Positions 24,869 to 41,512 of a stretch of DNA of 59,301 nt are shown one piece after another. Where the stretch lies: NCBI GenBank assembly GCA_964349395.1, contig CAYGGA010000004.1:1-59301 (forward strand), in the 5' to 3' direction. Every line of letters starts with the position of its first letter. Positions within the stretch are counted from its first letter, which is position 1. Below the pieces are notes generated by a model that was not told where the DNA came from, did no database searches, and worked only from the letters and a program-made list of their open reading frames with translations. The translations under genes were made by a program, and so were the position numbers. Source of the DNA: an uncultured Gammaproteobacteria bacterium (GTDB taxonomy: Bacteria > Patescibacteriota > Microgenomatia > Woykebacterales > RBG-16-39-9b).

Positions 24869-25708
24869 GTGGGCAGACCGAAAGTTGCTATTCCTAAAGA
24901 TGAACTCCACAAACTTTATTGGGAAGAGAAATTATCTCCGATAAAGATTGCTGTTTTATATAAGTGCAACCCAGTAACAGTCAGAACGCGAATTCGCGAA
25001 CACGGTTTAGCCACCCGTTCAAAGTCCATGGCGCAGATGCGTTATGAAAAGTATGATTTTTCAGGAGACGAAATTGAGAAAGCATATCTAATTGGTTTTA
25101 GATTAGGAGACCTAAACGTTTATCAAACTAGTGAAAGGTCGGAGCTAATCGTGGTGCGTTGTAATACCACACAACAGGCGCAAGTAAAACTAATAACAGA
25201 TCTCTTTTCTTCATACGGAAAGGTAACTCTTTCGCGAGGAAGTTATAGTACTAACATAAACTGTTTTTTAAATACCTCGTTTTCGTTCTTATTACCGAAG
25301 AGTACCGAGATACCAGAGTGGTTGGGACTAAATAAACTAACCTCTGCCGCTTTTACAGCAGGCTACATTGATGCAGAAGGAAATTTTATTCTAAACCAAG
25401 GAAAAGCAAGATTAAAAATTGATTCTTACGATAAAGAAGTCCTTCATTGGATATCTAACTGGTTGAATAAACAAGGTATAAACGTTAAAATTCGACGCAT
25501 TGCAAAACTTGGTGACATACAAAAAGGATCGATGTTGTTTAATAAAGATCTTTGGAGATTAAATATTAACGACGCCCCATCACTATTAAGGTTTATAAGT
25601 ATAGTGAAACCGTTTATTAAACACGAGACACGTTTAAAACATATTATGATTTGTGAAGATAATATAAAGCAGAGAACTCTTAAAAGAACAATTTACAATG
25701 CTAGATAA
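24869..25708 (+). mobile_element. Free-standing LAGLIDADG homing endonuclease with N-terminal HTH
   Basis: Motifs AYLIGFRLGDL and AFTAGYIDAEG; N-terminal HTH (LSPIKIAVLYKCNPVTVRTRI); overlaps the lepA start by 11 nt. Confidence 0.82.
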
Positions 25709-27464
25709 AATTAGGAACTTCGCAATTTTGGCACACATAGACCATGGTAAGTCGACCTTAGCAGACCGTATGCTCGAAATCACGGGTACGATTGCCAAAG
25801 ATAAAATGAAAGAGCAGCTCTTAGACACCATGGATATTGAAAGAGAACGGGGGATTACTATCAAACTCCAACCCGTGCGCATGCAGTTTAAAGGATATGA
25901 GCTGAATTTAATCGACACTCCGGGACATGTGGATTTTACTTACGAAGTTTCTCGTTCTTTAGCCGCGGTGGAGGGGGCAATTTTATTGGTAGATTGCACG
26001 CAAGGGATTGAAGCCCAGACTCTTTCCAATGCTTATTTAGCCATTGACCAGGGGTTGACCTTGATTCCAGTGATCAACAAAATTGACCTCCCCAATGCCC
26101 AGGTGGAGAAAACCACCCAAGATTTGATGTCTACTTTTGGTTTTAAGGAAAGTGAGATCTTGCAAGTATCCGCTAAAGAAGGTACCAATGTCGCCTCATT
26201 ATTGGACAGTGTTATCGGTCTGGTGCCACCTCCCAAAACGACCACGACTGATTTTCGGGCTTTGATTTTTGATTCCAATTTTGATTCTTTCAAAGGCGTT
26301 TTGGCTTACTGTCGCGTCATGGACGGGGAAATAAAAGCCGGCAGTGATATTGTTTCTTCGGGAACCAAACTAACTGCTAAGGTCTTGGAGGTGGGGATTT
26401 TTAATCCACAATTATGGGTAGTTGAGAGTTTAAAAGCAGGTGAGATAGGGTATATTGCCACGGGTCTAAAAGATGTCTCGCTCGTGCGCGTCGGTGACAC
26501 TTTAGCTAAAAGTGGTGAAAAAGCCTCTCCTTTAACTGGTTACCGGGAAGTCAAACCCATGGTTTTTGCAGGTATTTACCCGGTGGATAACCAAGAATAT
26601 CCTCAGCTGAGGGAGGCCTTAGAAAAACTAAAACTCAATGATGCGGCCTTGCAGTTTACACCCGAAAATTCTATTGCTTTGGGGTTTGGGTTTAGAGTGG
26701 GCTTTTTAGGACTGCTCCACCTTGAGATTGTCCAAGAAAGACTAGAAAGAGAATATAATTTAAATCTGATCACTTCGGCTCCCACGGTAGAGTACCAAAT
26801 TACCACCACCAAAAAAGAAGAGTTGGTGGTGGACTCCCCCTCCGAGCTGCCTAAAAAAGAACTAATTATGGAAATTAGAGAACCTTGGGTCAAGGGTAAT
26901 ATTATTGTACCGAGTGGTTATTTGGGGACGATCATGCAGCTGGTGACTGACCACCGGGGGCGAGTCAGCGACGTAAACTATATGGGAGATAGAGCCCAAG
27001 TGGTCATTGAAATCCCCTTGGCAGAAATTATCACCAATTTTTATGACCAACTCAAATCAAATACCTCTGGGTATGGGTCTTTTGATTATGAAATCACCGG
27101 CTTCACCCCTGTGAAAGCCGATAAACTAGATATTTTAGTAGCCGGGGAGATAGTGGACGCTTTAGGAATGATTGTGGTGAGTAGTAAGTCAGCGTCAGTG
27201 GGTCGAGATTTAATTGATAAACTAAAAGATGTCATTCCCAGGCAAAATTTTGCTGTCAGTTTACAAGCCGCAATTGGGGGAAAAATAGTGGCTAGAGAAG
27301 ATATCTCCGCTCTCAGAAAAGATGTGTTAGCAAAAATGAGTGGCGGTCACCGAGAGCGTAAGGATAAATTGTTGGAAGCCCAGAAAAAGGGTAAAAAGCG
27401 TTTAAAGAAGTTCGGTCGAGTAGAGATTCCTCAGGAAGCCTTTTTAGCCATAATGAAAAGTTAA
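25698..27464 (+). CDS. lepA: Elongation factor 4 (LepA)
   Basis: IRNFAILAHIDHGKST, ERERGITIK, DTPGHVDF, NKID, GFLGLLH, KLLEAQKKGK. Confidence 0.98.
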   Translation: MLDKIRNFAILAHIDHGKSTLADRMLEITGTIAKDKMKEQLLDTMDIERERGITIKLQPVRMQFKGYELNLIDTPGHVDFTYEVSRSLAAVEGAILLVDCTQGIEAQTLSNAYLAIDQGLTLIPVINKIDLPNAQVEKTTQDLMSTFGFKESEILQVSAKEGTNVASLLDSVIGLVPPPKTTTTDFRALIFDSNFDSFKGVLAYCRVMDGEIKAGSDIVSSGTKLTAKVLEVGIFNPQLWVVESLKAGEIGYIATGLKDVSLVRVGDTLAKSGEKASPLTGYREVKPMVFAGIYPVDNQEYPQLREALEKLKLNDAALQFTPENSIALGFGFRVGFLGLLHLEIVQERLEREYNLNLITSAPTVEYQITTTKKEELVVDSPSELPKKELIMEIREPWVKGNIIVPSGYLGTIMQLVTDHRGRVSDVNYMGDRAQVVIEIPLAEIITNFYDQLKSNTSGYGSFDYEITGFTPVKADKLDILVAGEIVDALGMIVVSSKSASVGRDLIDKLKDVIPRQNFAVSLQAAIGGKIVAREDISALRKDVLAKMSGGHRERKDKLLEAQKKGKKRLKKFGRVEIPQEAFLAIMKS

Positions 27465-27497
27465 AAAGAAAAAGCCCCAGAAGTTTTCCGAGGCCTT
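27464..27497 (-). terminator. Intrinsic terminator (GCCTC-core family, copy B)
   Basis: Minus strand AAGGCCTCGG-AAAACTT-CTGGGGCTT-TTTCTTTTT. Confidence 0.65.
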
Positions 27498-27528
27498 ATT
27501 GGTTGCAATTTGTGTCAGTAGGTTATCT

Positions 27529-27702
27529 CTACCTTGAGTGTCTACTGTTCTCCCAGCTCCTAGAACGTTTGGACAACCTGGCGTCAAATTTTGCCAGATT
27601 TTGGTCCCTCTTTCTCTGTCTCTCCGCCTCTCTTTCCCTACATTTCTTGCACGGACAACCTGGGGACGTTTCTTCGTTCCTATTGTAACCCCCGCCGACC
27701 AT
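27529..27702 (-). CDS. Small basic protein with CxCxxC motif (57 aa, below ORF-track cutoff)
   Basis: Hand-translated: MVGGGYNRNEETSPGCPCKKCREREAERQRKRDQNLAKFDARLSKRSRSWENSRHSR; GAGGTG SD; lies between two related terminators. Confidence 0.6.
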   Translation of the reverse strand: MVGGGYNRNEETSPGCPCKKCREREAERQRKRDQNLAKFDARLSKRSRSWENSRHSR

Positions 27703-27744
27703 ACTACACCTCTTTCCTTTGTAGTTAGATGTAATTATACACCC

Positions 27745-27777
27745 AAAGAAAAAGCCCCAGGTGTTTTTCTGAGGCTT
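27745..27777 (-). terminator. Intrinsic terminator (GCCTC-core family, copy C)
   Basis: Minus strand AAGCCTCAG-AAAAACAC-CTGGGGCTT-TTTCTTT; homologous to copy B. Confidence 0.65.
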
Positions 27778-27782
27778 AGGGT

Positions 27783-27992
27783 TTAGCTGAGGGTGATCGT
27801 CCAGACTCGCAGTCGCTCTTGAGCAATGCGGATAGGTACGCTATAAAGTTGGGCAAATTCCTTGAGCTGACGCTCCAACTCCTCTAAGGTTTTTGCCGAA
27901 CAATGACCAGCAGGTAGTAATCCCACCACATCCCCGCGGTAGTACCCTGCTTTGTTGGGATCAGGATAGACAAGGGCGGTGAAAGTTAGCAT
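27783..27992 (-). CDS. HicB-like antitoxin N-terminal domain protein, no HicA partner
   Basis: FTALVYPD...GYY...GLLPAGHCSAKTLEELERQLKE resembles the HicB RNase-H-like pattern; AGGAGAG SD. Confidence 0.55.
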   Translation of the reverse strand: MLTFTALVYPDPNKAGYYRGDVVGLLPAGHCSAKTLEELERQLKEFAQLYSVPIRIAQERLRVWTITLS

Positions 27993-28009
27993 CCTGCTCT
28001 CCTTCCTGA

Positions 28010-28273
28010 TTAATTTGAGGATTGTGTTTTGTCATCTTGGGGACTTGTTTTGGACACACTCAAAGTCAAGCTGTGAGCATAAACCAAAAGTCCAAAGATG
28101 GCCACCAACCCTACAATCGAGATAACTCCCACGCTTTCCCAGCTATTCATGAGAGAAAGGAAGCAAAGAGCTATAGCAGCCAGTAGTGCCCACCGGAGCC
28201 AAAACTGCCATTTCTCTAGTTTCTTGATCCTGGGATTTTTAGTCACCACAACTTCCCCTTTCTTTCTTTTCAT
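28010..28273 (-). CDS. Small 2-TM orphan membrane protein
   Basis: Basic N-terminus then two hydrophobic helices; ATG at 28273 preferred. Confidence 0.6.
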   Translation of the reverse strand: MKRKKGEVVVTKNPRIKKLEKWQFWLRWALLAAIALCFLSLMNSWESVGVISIVGLVAIFGLLVYAHSLTLSVSKTSPQDDKTQSSN

Positions 28274-28289
28274 TATTATACCAAATCTC

Positions 28290-28318
28290 TTGACATCTGT
28301 TAGCACTCGTAGTATAGT
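28290..28318 (+). promoter_or_regulatory. Sigma70 promoter of the hrcA operon
   Basis: TTGACA-17 nt-TATAGT. Confidence 0.8.
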
Positions 28319-28326
28319 TTTGCTAA
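28300..28326 (+). promoter_or_regulatory. CIRCE operator (right arm degenerate)
   Basis: TTAGCACTC-N9-TTTTGCTAA versus consensus TTAGCACTC-N9-GAGTGCTAA; overlaps the -10 upstream of hrcA. Confidence 0.8.
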
Positions 28327-28351
28327 ATTCCTACCTAAAAGGAGCCAGAAT

Positions 28352-29083
28352 ATGTCTGATTTGTCACCTAGGCAGCAAGAAATTTTAAGAGCCGTGATTG
28401 ATGAGTATATCTCTACTGCTGAGCCAGTAGGGTCAGAAAAAATTGTGGAGAAATACAATCTGGATGTTTCTCCCGCTACCGTGAGAAATGAAATGGTGGA
28501 TTTGACTGAACTTGCTTATTTAAAACAGCCACACACATCAGCCGGTAGGATCCCAACTCCCATGGCTTTGAAGTTTTACATTAATTCACTAATGAAAGAA
28601 ACTCAGCTTTCAGTTCGGGATGAGGTATCTATAAAAGAAGAACTTTGGGATCGGAGATTTGAATTTGATCGTCTGATGAGACTAGTGGCGCGTAAACTGG
28701 CCGAGCAGACTGGGTCACTCGCGGTGGCTATCAATGAAGATGGTGACGTCTATGCCGCCGGGGCAGCCTCCATGCTGGACATGCCGGAATTTTATGACAT
28801 TGATCTGACCAAGACGATTTTAACCATGCTGGATGGTGAGGATTTACTTGCTGCAATACTAGCTCGGGCAGTGGGTGAAGACTCGGTCCATGTATTGCTG
28901 GGAGACGAACTTGGGATGGAGTATTTAGAGCCGTGCGGATTTGTCTTTGCTCACTTCGGCGCCGGCAAGAAACACTCCGGCAGTATTGGAATCATTGGCC
29001 CTGCAAGGATGAGGTACGCGCGTGTGATCCCGACGGTCAGATATTTCAGTGATTTGCTAGGGGAAATGAGTGGTAGCTGGTAA
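28352..29083 (+). CDS. hrcA: Heat-inducible transcription repressor HrcA (short)
   Basis: RQQEIL...YISTAEPVGS, SPATVRNEM, PHTSAGRIPT, GIIGPARM. Confidence 0.93.
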   Translation: MSDLSPRQQEILRAVIDEYISTAEPVGSEKIVEKYNLDVSPATVRNEMVDLTELAYLKQPHTSAGRIPTPMALKFYINSLMKETQLSVRDEVSIKEELWDRRFEFDRLMRLVARKLAEQTGSLAVAINEDGDVYAAGAASMLDMPEFYDIDLTKTILTMLDGEDLLAAILARAVGEDSVHVLLGDELGMEYLEPCGFVFAHFGAGKKHSGSIGIIGPARMRYARVIPTVRYFSDLLGEMSGSW

Positions 29084-29793: not shown

Positions 29794-29867
29794 TGTCATT
29801 GCGAGCTTTAGCGAAGCAATCTCGACCTAAAGGGATTGCCACGGAACTAAAGTTCCGCGCAATGACA
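29794..29867. repeat. RPE-like palindromic repeat, family 1, copy 2
   Basis: TGTCATTGCGAGCTTTAGCGAAGCAATCTC...GATTGCCACG...CGCAATGACA. Confidence 0.85.
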
Positions 29868-32925: not shown

Positions 32926-33021
32926 TGTTATATTTCACGTTTTTTATAAAAATTAGCCTCAAAGTTTTCTGGATAAAAAATCTGAGGCTAAGAAAATTCA
33001 CTTTTTCAGTAAAATAGGACA
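32926..33021. repeat. About 96-bp palindromic element, copy 1 (MITE-like)
   Basis: TGTTATATTTCAC...TTAGCCTCA/TGAGGCTAA...GTAAAATAGGACA; direct repeat of 33474-33573. Confidence 0.8.
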
Positions 33022-33022
33022 C

Positions 33023-33124
33023 TTGTGTCTAGGTGTTGCGCTGGGGCTATCTCGGGTAGAAATGGACAACCTGCTGTACGCCGCCGACTACAAGCCCATC
33101 ACCCTGCCGCAGTCAGTGCGGTAG
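33023..33124 (+). pseudogene. 3' fragment of a probable XRE/HTH regulator gene
   Basis: Hand-translated LCLGVALGLSRVEMDNLLYAADYKPITLPQSVR*; GC3-rich; begins at the edge of the repeat; stop abuts that of the convergent ORF. Confidence 0.45.
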
Positions 33125-33473: not shown

Positions 33474-33573
33474 TGTCATATTTCACGTTTTTTATAAAAA
33501 ATTTAGCCTCAAAGTTTTCATTGCATGAAAAATCTGAGGCTAAAAAAATTCAGTTTTTCAGTGAGATATGACA
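33474..33573. repeat. 100-bp palindromic element, copy 2, with 13-bp terminal inverted repeats
   Basis: Ends TGTCATATTTCAC / GTGAGATATGACA (12 of 13 complementary); internal TAGCCTCA/TGAGGCTA stem. Confidence 0.8.
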
Positions 33574-33637: not shown

Positions 33638-33892
33638 TTAATTAGTTCTGAAGGCGCGGACCACTGCTAAGAGTATAACTGAGCCAAGCATAGCTACAAT
33701 CAATGAGTAGAGATTGAAGCCCACTGTACCTGGACCACCTAAAATTGTAATTACAAATCCACCGACCAAAGCACCCATTACTCCGACAATAATATCAAAG
33801 ATGGGTCCTTGCTCTTCATGCATAATCATAGACGCAATCCAACCAGCCATAGCACCAAAGACAATCCACATGACAAATTCCACCACTACCAC
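33638..33892 (-). CDS. GlsB/YeaQ/YmgE family (transglycosylase-associated) membrane protein
   Basis: WIVFGAMAGWIAS...DIIVGVMGALVGG...GSVILL; AGGAGGT SD. Confidence 0.9.
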   Translation of the reverse strand: MVVVEFVMWIVFGAMAGWIASMIMHEEQGPIFDIIVGVMGALVGGFVITILGGPGTVGFNLYSLIVAMLGSVILLAVVRAFRTN

Positions 33893-34180: not shown

Positions 34181-35452
34181 ATGGCCCTTAGAACTGAATT
34201 TGCAGCCGCACTAAATCAAGCCGCTTCCGAGCGGGGTATTGACGTGGAGGAGATTGTTTCCATCATGCAGGAAGCCATCAAGGCGGCTTACCGAAAGGAT
34301 TTTGGTGGGGAATTAGAGAATTTAGAAGTAACTCTAGATGATAGTAGTGGGGAAGCGAGAGTTTTTGAAGATGGCAAAGATGTCACCCCGGGTGGTTTTG
34401 GGAGAATTGCCGCCCAAACTGCCAAACAAGTGCTATTGCAAAGAATCAGGGAAGCAGAAAAAACCGCTATTTTGACAGAATTTGAAAAAAGAGTAGGTAC
34501 GATTATCAATGGTATGATCCAGAGGATTGAAGGACCAAATATTGTAGTCGACTTGGGTAAAACCGAAGGGCTGATGCCGCAAAGTGACCAATCTCAAGGT
34601 GAAAGCTATCGTTTAAATCAAAGACTCAAATTTTATATTGTTGGTATTAAGGAAGGCCCTCGGGGCCAAGACATCTTAGTCTCGCGCGCTCACAAAGGGT
34701 TAGTCGAAGGACTTTTCAAACTAGAAGTGCCGGAGATTGGTTCTGGCATCGTGGAAGTAAAAGCAGTAAGTCGGGAAGCGGGAGTGCGCTCCAAAGTAGC
34801 AGTTTCTTCGAAACAAGCTGGAGTGGATCCGGTGGGTAGTTGTGTAGGTCAAAAAGGGGTTCGGGTCCAAGCCGTGATTGCTGAACTTGGCAATGAAAAA
34901 ATTGATGTAATCCAGTACTCCGAAGAGACTTCTAAATTTATTTCGGCCGCTCTTTCTCCGGCCAAAGTGGACAACGTGAAGCTGGAAGAAGAGGGAAAAA
35001 CCGCCCATGTAGAAGTACCGGAAGATCAGCTCTCTTTAGCAATTGGAAAAGATGGACAGAATGTGCGCCTCGCGGCCAAACTCACTGGCTGGAGGATTGA
35101 CATCCAGGGTGCGAATGTCATTGCGAGCAATAGCGCGGCAATCTTAAAGCAGGAAGAGGAAGTTAAAGAGAAAAAAACTAAGAAGAGTGTGAAGGCTAAG
35201 AAAATCGATAAAGTAGAAAAAGAACCAAAAAAGAAGGTTGCTAAGAAAACAACTAAAACCAAAAAGAAAGATGAAGAGATCACCACGGCTTCGACTGACA
35301 GCCAGCCTCGTGATGACAAGGATACAAGTGAACCAAAAGATGAACAGGAAGAAAAAGTTGAAGCTGCTTTGGAGGCCCAAGAAGAAGAAAAAGCCTCCGG
35401 GGACACTGAGGAGCAGTTAAAAGTTATTGAGGATGGTCAGAAAAATGGCTAA
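34181..35452 (+). CDS. nusA: Transcription factor NusA with long Lys/Glu-rich C-tail
   Basis: FGRIAAQTAKQV, S1 and KH domains, REAGVRSKVAV, LAIGKDGQNVRLA; AAGGAG SD before ATG 34181. Confidence 0.96.
   Translation: MALRTEFAAALNQAASERGIDVEEIVSIMQEAIKAAYRKDFGGELENLEVTLDDSSGEARVFEDGKDVTPGGFGRIAAQTAKQVLLQRIREAEKTAILTEFEKRVGTIINGMIQRIEGPNIVVDLGKTEGLMPQSDQSQGESYRLNQRLKFYIVGIKEGPRGQDILVSRAHKGLVEGLFKLEVPEIGSGIVEVKAVSREAGVRSKVAVSSKQAGVDPVGSCVGQKGVRVQAVIAELGNEKIDVIQYSEETSKFISAALSPAKVDNVKLEEEGKTAHVEVPEDQLSLAIGKDGQNVRLAAKLTGWRIDIQGANVIASNSAAILKQEEEVKEKKTKKSVKAKKIDKVEKEPKKKVAKKTTKTKKKDEEITTASTDSQPRDDKDTSEPKDEQEEKVEAALEAQEEEKASGDTEEQLKVIEDGQKNG
35117..35317 (+). repeat. Family-1 RPE-like repeat split and embedded in frame in nusA
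   Basis: Left arm GTCATTGCGAGCAATAGCGCGGCAATCT (24 of 28 identical to the copy at 29795); right arm GAGATCACCACG...CTCGTGATGAC at 35276-35317. Confidence 0.75.
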
Positions 35453-40477: not shown

Positions 40478-41512
40478 ATGGATTTAGCTGCTGCTCAAAA
40501 CAGTATTGAAACTGCCAATTTACCCGTAAAATTAAAAGAAACGGTCCAAGAAACATTAGACCGACTCAAAAATCTATCTCAAGGCAAAGAGTATTATACT
40601 GAGTACGATTCTCTACTACGCTACATTGACTGGGTAGTCAATCTTCCCTGGGAAAAAGAGAGTCAAGATCAGCTTGATTTAAAACAAGCTAAAGAAATTT
40701 TAGACCAAGGCCATTTTGGCCTAGAACCGATTAAAGAGAGGATCTTGGAGTATCTATCAGTTAGGAAACTCCAGAATCGGGTTGAAGGTAGTGTCTTTAA
40801 AGCTCCGATTCTGTGTTTTGCTGGTTTGCAAGGTAGTGGTAAAACTACTTTGGCAAAATCTATTGCTAAAGCTCTAAACCGTAAGTTTGAGCGTGTATCT
40901 TTAGGAGCGATTGGAAGTACGTCCCAATTGCGTGGCCGCCCCAGGTCAGAACCAGATAGCGAACCAGGTCAGATCATCAAGTCACTCAGACGGGCAGAAA
41001 CCAGAAATCCAGTCATCTTGCTTGACGAGATTGATAAGGTGAGTGGTGAGACTTCTCTGCGCAATGACGTCATGGCCGCTCTTTTAGAGATTTTAGATCC
41101 CGAGCAGAACCCCACTTTTAGGGATCACTACGTTGATTTTCCTTTTGACTTGAGGCATGTGATTTTTGTCTGCACGGCCAATGATCTGGTGACAGTTTCT
41201 CCAGCTTTGTTAGATCGTATGGAGGTAGTGCAAATGCCGTCTTACTCTGACAGCGAGAAAATCACCATTGGTAAGGACTACTTACTACCGCAAATTGCCA
41301 AAGAGAATGGCCTTAAGGATAAAGAAATCACTATTACCGAGTCTCTTTGGCCCAAAATTGTGCGTCCCCTGGGATTTGATGCGGGACTTAGGACTTTGGA
41401 AAGAAATTTGGATACCATTACCCGCAAGGTAGCTAAAAAAATTGTCACGGGAGAAGGCCAGAATTTTACTATTACTGAAAACAACCTCAAGGAGTTTCTC
41501 GAGAGTTACTAA
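40478..41512 (+). CDS. Lon-type AAA+ ATPase module only (no N-domain, no protease domain)
   Basis: DQGHFGLEPIKERILEYL, GLQGSGKTT, LLDEIDK, DPEQN, LLDRME; ends at the AAA lid. Confidence 0.85.
   Translation: MDLAAAQNSIETANLPVKLKETVQETLDRLKNLSQGKEYYTEYDSLLRYIDWVVNLPWEKESQDQLDLKQAKEILDQGHFGLEPIKERILEYLSVRKLQNRVEGSVFKAPILCFAGLQGSGKTTLAKSIAKALNRKFERVSLGAIGSTSQLRGRPRSEPDSEPGQIIKSLRRAETRNPVILLDEIDKVSGETSLRNDVMAALLEILDPEQNPTFRDHYVDFPFDLRHVIFVCTANDLVTVSPALLDRMEVVQMPSYSDSEKITIGKDYLLPQIAKENGLKDKEITITESLWPKIVRPLGFDAGLRTLERNLDTITRKVAKKIVTGEGQNFTITENNLKEFLESY

What the first reader, a model, noticed from the sequence alone, without database searches (positions are those of the whole stretch)
27464..28273. 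Array of three small orphan ORFs separated by homologous terminators related to the 33-kb element core
Seen: behind lepA, three minus-strand ORFs (2-TM protein, HicB-like, 57-aa CxCxxC protein) lie in tandem. The last two are SD-led and each is followed by a near-identical hairpin, AAG(G)CCTC(A/G)G-AAAA(A)C..-CTGGGGCTTTTTCTTT. The same GCCTCAG...GAAAAC...TGAGGC core follows both small minus-strand genes at 33 kb, giving four copies, each 3' of a small accessory gene. Inference: gene-plus-hairpin modules accumulate at ends of housekeeping operons in a cassette-like way that does not use canonical attC sites.
Basis: partly seen in the sequence, partly recalled or inferred. Interest (0 to 1): 0.66.

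Follow-up and report, generated by a model that had tools for sequence, protein, structure and literature searches.

The report
Duplicated terminator behind tiny orphan genes
Between the lepA and hrcA genes of an uncultured candidate-phyla bacterium lie three tiny orphan genes, two of them ending in sister copies of one transcription-stop hairpin; this looks like a local 280-base gain, probably a tandem duplication, and nothing shows a mobile gene-cassette system.

Summary
H1 (27745-27777) and H2 (27465-27497) are minus-strand-specific intrinsic terminators. They match at 27 of 31 positions, which puts them in the top 0.01% of about 100,000 terminator pairs in this genome.

A covariance model built from the four hairpins finds only those four in the 953-kb genome and nothing comparable in 60 relatives. 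The motif is a local family, not a dispersed element.

A close relative (HrcA 85% identical) has one diverged orthologue of ORF B at this locus. It has a single hairpin with the same stem, abutting the lepA stop codon. It has no ORF A and no ORF C. G000 therefore differs by a 280-bp unit: TGTATAAT box, SD, ORF C and a second hairpin.

ORF B and ORF C share weak similarity (p about 1e-3). ORF C has non-genic codon usage. Elsewhere in the genome, neighbouring same-strand terminators are often homologous (9 of 157 pairs; P = 4e-13), twice behind proven tandem paralogues. Tandem duplication followed by decay fits best.

The link to the 33-kb repeats is modest but probably real: they share an 11-mer with the relative's hairpin. 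"HicB-like" is not supported. I found no integron integrase, no attC features and no population variants. Interest is low to moderate.

The parts
25698..27464 (+). lepA (EF4), convergent housekeeping gene; its stop codon abuts H2
   Evidence: 588-aa ORF. Pfam GTP_EFTU/LepA_C on the identical public contigs. 54-61% identical orthologues in syntenic relatives.
27465..27497 (-). H2: intrinsic terminator of the ORF C unit; the ancestral lepA-proximal hairpin
   Evidence: 12-bp stem plus TTTTTCTTT. Folds at -14.8 kcal/mol on the minus strand and only -4.3 on the plus strand. An orthologous hairpin with the same stem abuts the lepA stop in relative L036.
27529..27702 (-). ORF C, 57 aa, basic, CPCKKC; probably a degenerate copy of ORF B or a very young gene
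   Evidence: No homologue in 5.8 bn protein clusters. Codon score -0.16, below every in-frame 60-codon piece sampled from long ORFs. Smith-Waterman (SW) score 39 against ORF B: 1/5000 shuffles, and top of 833 real ORFs. Absent in the close relative.
27734..27741 (-). TGTATAAT promoter box of the ORF C unit, 3 nt after the H1 T-tract
   Evidence: The octamer occurs only 18 times in the genome (66 expected); 10 of the 18 are followed within 45 nt by an SD-like motif and a start codon.
27745..27777 (-). H1: intrinsic terminator of the ORF A-ORF B operon; sister copy of H2, 280 nt away
   Evidence: 9-bp stem plus TTTTTCTTT. -14.6 kcal/mol. 27/31 identical to H2. 10-nt exact match to the relative's hairpin, the best of 442 terminators.
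27783..27992 (-). ORF B, 69 aa: a real, fast-evolving, clade-restricted orphan gene
   Evidence: Gene-like codon score 0.19. Called in eight public assemblies. A syntenic diverged orthologue in L036 shares ALVYPDPN (BLASTP E 6e-4; SW 42, 8/3000 shuffles). AlphaFold2 (AF2) pLDDT 73 with strand/helix order b-b-b-a-b-b.
28010..28249 (-). ORF A, about 79 aa, two-TM orphan (ATG 28273 unlikely as start); first gene of the A-B operon
   Evidence: ORF list. Only sub-threshold membrane DUF hits. No homologues. Ambiguous codon score 0.035. Absent in the relative.
28275..28303 (-). Promoter of the ORF A-B operon (CTAACA-17-TATAAT with TG); its -35 overlaps CIRCE
   Evidence: 10/12 match.
28300..28326 (.). 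CIRCE operator (TTAGCACTC-N9-TTTTGCTAA) in the hrcA promoter (TTGACA-17-TATAGT, 28290-28318)
   Evidence: The only part of 27440-28350 conserved at DNA level in relatives. Coordinates; promoter.
32926..33021 (-). E2: about 100-nt hairpin repeat, 5 nt after the dnaJ stop
   Evidence: -16.7 kcal/mol. Shares the 11-mer AGCCTCAGATT with the relative's lepA hairpin.
33474..33573 (-). E1: sister copy of E2, behind the GlsB/YeaQ-family gene (33638-33892)
   Evidence: -21.2 kcal/mol. Pfam Transgly_assoc for the upstream gene.

Best explanation
H1 and H2 are rho-independent terminators of two tiny minus-strand transcription units. These units sit in a fast-turnover junction between the 3' end of lepA and the CIRCE-controlled hrcA-grpE-dnaK-dnaJ operon.

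Unit 1 runs from a promoter overlapping CIRCE through ORF A and ORF B to H1. Unit 2 runs from a TGTATAAT box through ORF C to H2. H2 also shields lepA from antisense read-through.

The lepA-proximal hairpin is ancestral: a close relative has one hairpin with the same stem on the lepA stop codon, ending a single orthologue of ORF B.

In this lineage a 280-bp unit (promoter box, SD, ORF C, second hairpin) is extra. It most likely arose by tandem duplication of the ORF B-plus-terminator unit. Selection then kept the stems and the U-tract, while the loop and the coding part drifted. ORF C would therefore be a decayed copy, or at best a very young gene.

Shown here: the terminator anatomy and strand specificity, the homology of H1 and H2, the restriction to four local copies, and the presence/absence difference against the relative.

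Inferred: duplication rather than insertion, the direction of change (gain here versus loss in the relative), and expression of the units.
For: Terminator anatomy:
- Stems of 9-12 bp with G.U pairs, followed by TTTTTCTTT, lie 5 and 31 nt after the stop codons.
- They are stable only on the minus strand.

Homology of H1 and H2:
- 27/31 identity, and differences concentrated in the loop.
- Top 9 of 103,268 pairs.

Genome-wide pattern:
- 9 of 157 same-strand neighbour pairs within 1.5 kb score at least 15, against 0.12% of other pairs (binomial P = 4e-13).
- At C9:22.3 kb and C11:25-26 kb the genes upstream of such pairs are BLAST-proven paralogues (E 4e-32 and 5e-10). Their terminators match at 25/33 (76%; C9) and 24 of 32 overlapping positions (C11), while the proteins are only 32-38% identical.

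ORF B versus ORF C:
- A near full-length collinear alignment scores 39. This is reached by 1/5000 and 0/5000 shuffles, and is the best of 833 and of 560 real ORFs of matching length.
- Both have similar GC (0.52 and 0.51).
- ORF C has a non-genic codon score and was not called in full-length public contigs.

Outgroup L036:
- It has a single hairpin and a single ORF B orthologue.
- H1 and H2 share a derived G.U pair and a U-tract that the outgroup lacks.
Against: - Outside the hairpin there is no DNA-level similarity between the two 280-nt units.
- A profile built from ORF B plus its orthologue does not detect ORF C (hhalign).
- ORF C lacks the ALVYPDPN motif, the best-conserved part of the ORF B family.
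- ORF C has a well-formed promoter box, SD and ATG. A decaying copy would have had to acquire or keep these.
- With one outgroup, gain here cannot be told from loss in the relative by recombination between two hairpins.
- The sequence link to the 33-kb repeats, which show the same gene-hairpin-odd ORF-hairpin-housekeeping stop layout, is not explained by two independent tandem duplications.
Confidence: 0.55

Rival explanations
1. Hairpin-targeted insertion. A self-expressed promoter-ORF C unit carrying its own copy of the hairpin recombined with the chromosomal lepA terminator. That left the hairpin duplicated on both sides, as attL and attR. A related event at a similar hairpin behind dnaJ produced the 33-kb pair.
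For: - Homology is confined sharply to the hairpin plus about 8 nt.
- The unit is absent from the close relative, with boundaries at the hairpin.
- ORF C and the 85-aa ORF at 33 kb both have non-host codon scores.
- Both second hairpins abut the stop codon of a housekeeping gene.
- E1/E2 share the 11-mer AGCCTCAGATT with the relative's hairpin, a longer match than any of 442 terminators gives.
- The decamer CAGGTTGTCC occurs in the window only inside the two inner segments (3 copies against 0.09 expected).
- An unrelated candidate cassette array exists next to tRNA-His on contig C1.
Against: - Only four copies, all within 6 kb, and none in 60 relatives.
- No recombinase on the contig; the three in the genome are Xer-type.
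- The hairpins are RNA-type, strand-specific, and only 21-27 nt long.
- No variants or joints in four metagenome runs or eight contigs, nor at the analogous mfd locus.
- The inner segments are not significantly similar to each other.
- No match to phages or plasmids.
- The ORF B / ORF C similarity favours duplication.
Confidence: 0.2
2. The two terminators arose independently, or only the hairpin was duplicated. They are kept alike by short-tract gene conversion or by selection for one favoured stem. ORF C would then be an unrelated de novo or spurious ORF in the spacer.
For: - At the mfd locus two terminators are 27/27 identical although the proteins upstream are barely alignable. This suggests homogenisation or strong constraint on the hairpins.
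- CCTC/GAGG-type stems recur among this genome's terminators.
Against: - The similarity includes part of the loop (AAAAC), the exact U-tract TTTTTCTTT and about 8 nt of 5' flank. Convergence does not predict these.
- The ORF B / ORF C alignment is unexpected under this model.
Confidence: 0.15
3. Chance: two ordinary terminators that happen to look alike.
For: Terminator-like sites are no more frequent in 24-36 kb than in shuffled sequence (12 found against 13 expected).
Against: - Pair identity lies in the top 0.01% of all pairs.
- Similar terminators are enriched among neighbours, P = 4e-13.
- The stem is conserved in the orthologous position of a relative.
Confidence: 0.02

Closest known systems
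Rho-independent (intrinsic) transcription terminators
   Same: A GC-rich stem-loop with G.U pairs, followed immediately by a U-tract, lying a few nucleotides after the stop codon on the coding strand and stable on that strand only.
   Different: Nothing functional differs. What is unusual is that the two neighbours are sister copies, and that the stem is conserved across species while the genes in front of it diverge beyond easy recognition.
Tandem duplicates of small gene-plus-terminator units (for example the Clp-N-domain pair at C9:21.6-23.0 kb and the pair at C11:24.4-26.5 kb of this genome)
   Same: Head-to-tail units, each with its own terminator. The terminators stay about 75-90% alike while the coding parts diverge quickly.
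   Different: At the lepA locus the paralogy of the two ORFs is only weakly detectable, and the second copy looks non-genic.
Integron gene cassettes, and CALIN clusters of attC sites without an integrase (Cury et al. 2016; cited from my own knowledge)
   Same: An array of co-oriented small genes, each followed by a related imperfect palindrome, with content that varies between relatives.
   Different: - No attC architecture: no 57-141-nt site, no R''/L''-L'/R' boxes, no GTTRRRY.
- No integron integrase.
- The added unit carries its own promoter.
- Only two sites per locus.
Site-specific integrative elements that duplicate their att core, including the tRNA-His-linked array on contig C1 of this genome
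   Same: Direct repeats of a short core flank an inserted segment at the 3' end of a conserved gene.
   Different: - No integrase and no element genes remain.
- The core is a terminator hairpin, not a tRNA end.
- H and E do not resemble the C1 site.
REP / BIME / REPIN and MITE-like palindromic repeats that double as terminators
   Same: Extragenic palindromes at gene ends.
   Different: They are not dispersed: four copies in 6 kb and none elsewhere or in relatives. The genome's one Y1 transposase-like gene lies on another contig.
HicB antitoxins
   Same: A small protein with a b-b-b-a order of elements and a G-Y...LPG-like stretch.
   Different: No family-model hit, no structural hit, and no HicA partner.

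Membership tests
Intrinsic terminator | GC-rich stem-loop followed directly by a U-rich tract | tested here: met
   H1 has a 9-bp stem (5 GC pairs) and H2 a 12-bp stem (5 GC pairs); each is followed by TTTTTCTTT. Folding energies are -14.6 and -14.8 kcal/mol, z -2.5 and -3.8.
Intrinsic terminator | Lies just downstream of a stop codon, on the coding strand, and is stable on that strand | tested here: met
   The hairpins start 5 nt and 31 nt after the stops of ORF B and ORF C. The plus-strand fold of H2 is only -4.3 kcal/mol, z +0.4.
Intrinsic terminator | Transcripts end at the U-tract | not testable with these tools
   No RNA run holds this stretch.
Integron cassette array / CALIN | attC sites: 57-141 nt imperfect palindromes with R''/L''-L'/R' boxes and GTTRRRY | tested here: not met
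   The H1 and H2 palindromes are 21-27 nt and contain no GTTRRRY or RYYYAAC.
Integron cassette array / CALIN | Integron integrase in the genome or nearby (not required for CALIN) | tested here: not met
   There are three PF00589 proteins, on C12, C7 and C17. All hit XerC/XerD best. Against TIGR02249 they score at most 134.5 bits, below the 265-bit cut-off.
Integron cassette array / CALIN | Cassettes mostly promoterless, expressed from Pc | tested here: not met
   ORF C is preceded by a TGTATAAT box. This octamer occurs 18 times in the genome, and 10 of those are followed within 45 nt by an SD-like motif and a start codon.
REP/REPIN/MITE-type dispersed palindromes | Many dispersed copies in the genome and in relatives | tested here: not met
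   Covariance model R1 scores the four training copies at 37-43 bits; the next hit scores 24 bits and is a generic terminator. The best hit in 60 relatives is 30 bits.
REP/REPIN/MITE-type dispersed palindromes | Associated RAYT / Y1 transposase | tested here: not met
   The single Y1_Tnp hit is at C8:20450, not on the window's contig.
Tandem duplication of a gene-terminator unit | Head-to-tail homologous 3' ends at unit spacing | tested here: met
   A 34-nt direct repeat at a spacing of 280 nt; 27/31 identity.
Tandem duplication of a gene-terminator unit | The two genes are paralogues | tested here: inconclusive
   Smith-Waterman score 39: reached by 1/5000 shuffles, and the best of 833 and of 560 real ORFs. 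BLASTP finds nothing, hhalign finds nothing, and there is no DNA-level similarity.
Tandem duplication of a gene-terminator unit | Single-copy state in an outgroup | tested here: met
   L036 has one ORF B orthologue and one hairpin between lepA and hrcA.
HicB antitoxin (ORF B) | Match to HicB/UPF0150 family models | tested here: not met
   No Pfam hit at E <= 1. The only NCBIfam hit is an unrelated family at E 0.16. No PADLOC hit.
HicB antitoxin (ORF B) | HicB-like fold | tested here: inconclusive
   The single-sequence AlphaFold2 model has pLDDT 73. The best Foldseek PDB hit is E 0.33, a generic alpha/beta fold, and no HicB is among the top 50.
HicB antitoxin (ORF B) | Adjacent HicA toxin gene | tested here: not met
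   The neighbours are a two-TM orphan and a basic 57-aa orphan, neither with a family hit.

The most novel reading that the evidence does not exclude
A hairpin with the stem AGCCUCAGA/UCUGAGGCU, kept at the 3' ends of housekeeping genes in this candidate-phyla (CPR) lineage, serves as a landing site. Self-expressed single-gene units are gained there, and the hairpin is duplicated at each gain. This would be a terminator-anchored gene-capture mechanism that works without attC sites or a linked integrase. The lepA and dnaJ loci would be two decayed examples, and the conserved-terminator / diverged-gene pairs elsewhere in the genome would be its wider footprint.
Probability: 0.12. Interest if true: 0.7.

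Novelty: new member of a known kind. Interest (0 to 1): 0.27.

Why it matters
As it stands this is ordinary biology: intrinsic terminators, orphan micro-genes and a local duplication in a variable junction between operons.

Two points have some value. First, they give a calibrated example of how fast small accessory genes turn over in a reduced CPR genome. HrcA is 85% identical between two relatives, whereas the neighbouring small protein retains only a short motif. Second, terminator stems here outlast the genes they serve. Neighbouring terminators are homologous far more often than chance allows. That makes them usable as markers of old tandem duplications when the proteins are no longer alignable.

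If the minority reading were right, it would describe a new way of capturing genes at terminators.

Tried and rejected
Homology and family searches that found nothing:
- Pfam, NCBIfam and PADLOC for ORFs A, B and C.
- Word-indexed homology search for ORF A and ORF C.
- Exhaustive phmmer of ORF B against 1.84 bn representatives. It returned only ORF B itself and two spurious repeat proteins.
- PDB sequence search for ORF B: chance-level hits only.
- Rfam on 27300-28450.
- blastn against phages and plasmids.
- A homologue search with the relative's 115-aa protein: itself only.

The HicB idea: the single-sequence AlphaFold2 model followed by Foldseek gave no HicB.

Population evidence:
- Eight contigs are 99.8-100% identical to the window.
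- Logan contigs of four runs show no joints or alternative junctions at the lepA locus or the mfd locus. Depth is only 5-10x and only contigs were available, so absence is weak evidence.
- No RNA run holds this stretch.

Comparisons that were not significant:
- DNA similarity between the two 280-nt units outside the hairpin.
- The inner segments of the lepA and 33-kb loci against each other.
- H and E hairpins against the approximately 80-nt site of the tRNA-His array on C1.
- ORF A against the relative's protein.

H2 as a bidirectional terminator for lepA: rejected, because the plus-strand fold is weak and has no U-tract.

Full report
SETTING

The window is contig C4 of a 953-kb, 35-contig genome. 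On the plus strand lie murJ, a free-standing LAGLIDADG gene and lepA (25698-27464). After an 887-nt gap come hrcA (28352), grpE, a 92-aa gene, dnaK and dnaJ.

The gap holds three minus-strand ORFs:
- ORF A, 28010-28273 as listed.
- ORF B, 27783-27992.
- ORF C, 27529-27702.

OBSERVATION

- H1: AAGCCTCAGAAAAACACCTGGGGCTTTTTCTTT, 27745-27777.
- H2: AAGGCCTCGGAAAACTTCTGGGGCTTTTTCTTT, 27465-27497.

They are the two strongest terminator-like sites in 24-36 kb. On the minus strand they fold at -14.6 and -14.8 kcal/mol. On the plus strand H2 reaches only -4.3 kcal/mol (z +0.4), because the stems use G.U pairs. So they act at the RNA level, on the strand of the small ORFs. H2 is not a terminator for lepA.

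A promoter for ORF A-B (CTAACA-17-TATAAT with an upstream TG) lies at 28303-28275. Its -35 overlaps the CIRCE operator of hrcA (28300-28326). The ATG at 28273 falls 2 nt after that -10 box. ORF A therefore more likely starts at GTG 28249, behind the SD AAGGGGA.

ORF B starts 17 nt after the ORF A stop, so A and B form one operon ending at H1. Three nucleotides after the H1 T-tract comes TGTATAAT (27734-27741), then an SD and the ORF C start. That octamer occurs only 18 times in the genome against 66 expected. Ten of the 18 are followed within 45 nt by an SD-like motif and a start codon.

IS THE HAIRPIN SIMILARITY MORE THAN CHANCE?

I collected 455 terminator-like hairpins genome-wide.
- H1/H2 anchored identity is 24/34. 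Only 9 of 103,268 pairs reach that.
- With one gap they match at 27/31, and most differences lie in the loop.
- Same-strand neighbours within 1.5 kb are enriched for similar terminators. Nine of 157 pairs score at least 15, against 0.12% of other pairs (P = 4e-13).

At two such loci the upstream genes are clear tandem paralogues:
- C9:21.6-23.0 kb, BLASTP E 4e-32.
- C11:24.4-26.5 kb, BLASTP E 5e-10.

There the proteins are only 32-38% identical, while the terminators match at 25/33 (76%; C9) and 24 of 32 overlapping positions (C11). Behind mfd (C6:40.1-41.35 kb) two small ORFs end in 27/27-identical terminators. Adjacent members of that three-ORF array align weakly (z about 3). In this genome, then, terminator stems outlast fast-evolving small genes, and tandem duplication is the documented source of such pairs.

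A covariance model built from the four hairpins scores them at 37-43 bits. The next hits in the own genome score 24 bits or less. They are generic terminators with different stems, behind ordinary genes. Sixty relatives give at most 30 bits. The motif is therefore neither a common terminator type nor a dispersed element. It exists as four copies within 6 kb.

THE SMALL ORFS

None of the three hits Pfam, NCBIfam or PADLOC. ORF A and ORF C have no homologue among 5.8 bn protein clusters. ORF B finds only itself and two spurious repeat proteins among 1.84 bn representatives.

A codon-usage log-likelihood score trained on long ORFs gives:
- ORF B: 0.19, gene-like.
- ORF A: 0.035, ambiguous.
- ORF C: -0.16, below every in-frame 60-codon piece sampled from long ORFs.

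Gene callers on eight public contigs called only ORF B between hrcA and lepA.

"HicB-like" is not supported. The single-sequence AlphaFold2 model (pLDDT 73; strand/helix order b-b-b-a-b-b) has no Foldseek match better than E 0.33 and no HicB among the top 50. PDB sequence hits are at chance level.

RELATIVES

No same-genus genome is held. At DNA level only the CIRCE/promoter stretch of the gap is conserved.

Family-level relatives keep murJ-lepA-[gap]-hrcA-grpE-dnaK. They fill the gap with 0.67-4.7 kb of unrelated genes (NTPase, membrane proteins, phosphatase, NUDIX, glycosyltransferase, P-type ATPase) and no similar hairpins.

The informative case is a close relative with HrcA 85% identical (contigs L026 and L036). 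Between lepA and hrcA it has:
- CIRCE and a TGTATAAT box.
- One minus-strand 115-aa ORF.
- One perfect hairpin, AAGCCTCAGATTCACCTCTGAGGCTT, overlapping the lepA stop codon.

The 115-aa protein is a diverged, syntenic orthologue of ORF B. It shares the WAALFYPDPN/FTALVYPDPN motif (BLASTP E 6e-4; Smith-Waterman score 42, reached by 8/3000 shuffles) and a collinear C-terminus ending ...LR.W.

The relative has no ORF A and no ORF C. H2 is therefore the orthologue of an ancestral lepA-proximal hairpin. G000 differs by a 280-bp unit bounded by hairpin copies. H1 and H2 share a G.U pair and the TTTTTCTTT tract that the relative lacks, so they are each other's closest relatives.

DUPLICATION OR INSERTION?

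For duplication:
- ORF B residues 16-64 align collinearly with ORF C residues 5-50. The score is 39, reached by 1/5000 and 0/5000 shuffles (my own Karlin-Altschul estimate gives E about 0.005).
- That score is the best of 833 and of 560 real ORFs of matching length, although other ORFs reach 38.
- ORF B and ORF C have similar GC (0.52 and 0.51).
- Proven paralogue pairs elsewhere in the genome show the same pattern.

Against duplication:
- No DNA-level similarity outside the hairpin.
- hhalign with a profile of ORF B plus its orthologue detects nothing in ORF C.
- ORF C lacks the YPDPN motif.
- ORF C has a tidy promoter box, SD and ATG.

I put tandem duplication followed by decay at about 0.55. 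Hairpin-targeted insertion is about 0.2. Hairpin-only duplication or gene conversion is about 0.15.

LINK TO THE 33-KB PAIR

E1 (33474-33573) and E2 (32926-33021) are about 100-nt repeats, about 88-90% identical, with a compound 20-bp stem. They are much larger than H1 and H2.

Within G000 the longest exact match of E1 to H1 is 9 nt (rank 5 of 442 terminators) and to H2 is 8 nt (rank 16). That is weak. The relative's hairpin, however, shares the 11-mer AGCCTCAGATT with E1 and E2. No G000 terminator matches it that well: H1 reaches 10 nt and the next best reach 8. A sequence relationship is therefore likely (roughly p 0.005).

The two loci also share a layout: real gene, hairpin, ORF with non-host codon usage, hairpin, stop codon of a housekeeping gene. 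The inner segments are not significantly similar to each other. They do contain all three window copies of CAGGTTGTCC, against 0.09 expected. I cannot explain this. It keeps the insertion model alive.

TESTS OF THE CASSETTE MODEL
- The hairpins have no attC architecture.
- The genome's three tyrosine recombinases are Xer-type. They lie on other contigs and score far below the integron-integrase cut-off.
- The single Y1 transposase-like gene is on C8.
- Eight contigs from the same study are 99.8-100% identical to the window.
- Logan contigs of four runs show no joints at this locus or at the mfd locus. Depth is only 5-10x, so this is weak evidence of absence.
- The candidate cassette array next to tRNA-Arg/tRNA-His on C1 uses an unrelated site of about 80-97 nt.

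VERDICT

The features are intrinsic terminators of orphan micro-gene units in a rapidly turning-over junction. One unit is lineage-specific and most likely arose by local duplication.

Noticed in passing
window 24869-25708: A free-standing LAGLIDADG endonuclease gene (Pfam LAGLIDADG_3, E 2e-8) sits between murJ and lepA and overlaps the lepA start. In family relatives murJ and lepA lie about 33 nt apart with no such gene.
   Followed up: partly
window 28275-28326: The -35 box of the ORF A-B promoter overlaps the CIRCE operator of the divergent hrcA promoter. HrcA may therefore co-repress the small-ORF operon. One CIRCE arm is degenerate (TTTTGCTAA).
   Followed up: no
genome contig C6:40140-41350 (locus L039): Behind mfd lie three small plus-strand orphan ORFs that look like diverged paralogues. 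Two of them end in 27/27-identical terminators (40851-40877 and 41321-41347). ORFs 1 and 3 also share a leader (TATAAT...GCACC..TGGAGGA.GAAA). No population variants were seen.
   Followed up: partly
genome contig C1:113600-116357: Four copies of an imperfect-inverted-repeat element, up to about 97 nt long, separate small genes next to tRNA-Arg and tRNA-His (C1:112854-113058). Its site is unrelated to H1/H2 and E1/E2.
   Followed up: partly
window 27571-27580, 27653-27662, 33064-33073: The decamer CAGGTTGTCC occurs three times in the window (0.09 expected). All three copies lie inside the two segments enclosed by hairpin pairs, in different reading frames. Five of the six other genomic copies lie in one repeat family (next item).
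   Followed up: partly
genome C2:52223, C7:31816, C9:33088, C10:1667, C14:15551: A dispersed GC-rich palindromic intergenic repeat of about 88 nt (GCGGGTCCTGTCGCAGGTTGTCCCTCCCGCC...CCACCTGCACCACCCGC), five copies, not characterised.
   Followed up: no
window 29794-29822 and 35116-35144: A 29-nt repeat (TGTCATTGCGAGC..AGCG..GCAATCT, 86% identical). One copy lies between the 92-aa gene and dnaK; the other lies inside the 3' part of nusA.
   Followed up: no
loci L018, L019 (relatives G010, G022): The dnaK-dnaJ junction, 55 nt in this genome, holds 1.9-2.2 kb of extra DNA in two relatives. The chaperone operon has several variable junctions.
   Followed up: no
genome contig C26:5716-6178: 37-38-nt perfect direct repeats at a spacing of about 71 nt, probably a CRISPR array.
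   Followed up: no
whole genome: TGTATAAT and TATAAT are strongly under-represented (18 against 66 expected; 412 against 1079 expected). Surviving TGTATAAT copies mostly sit in front of genes, which makes the octamer a usable promoter marker for this lineage.
   Followed up: partly
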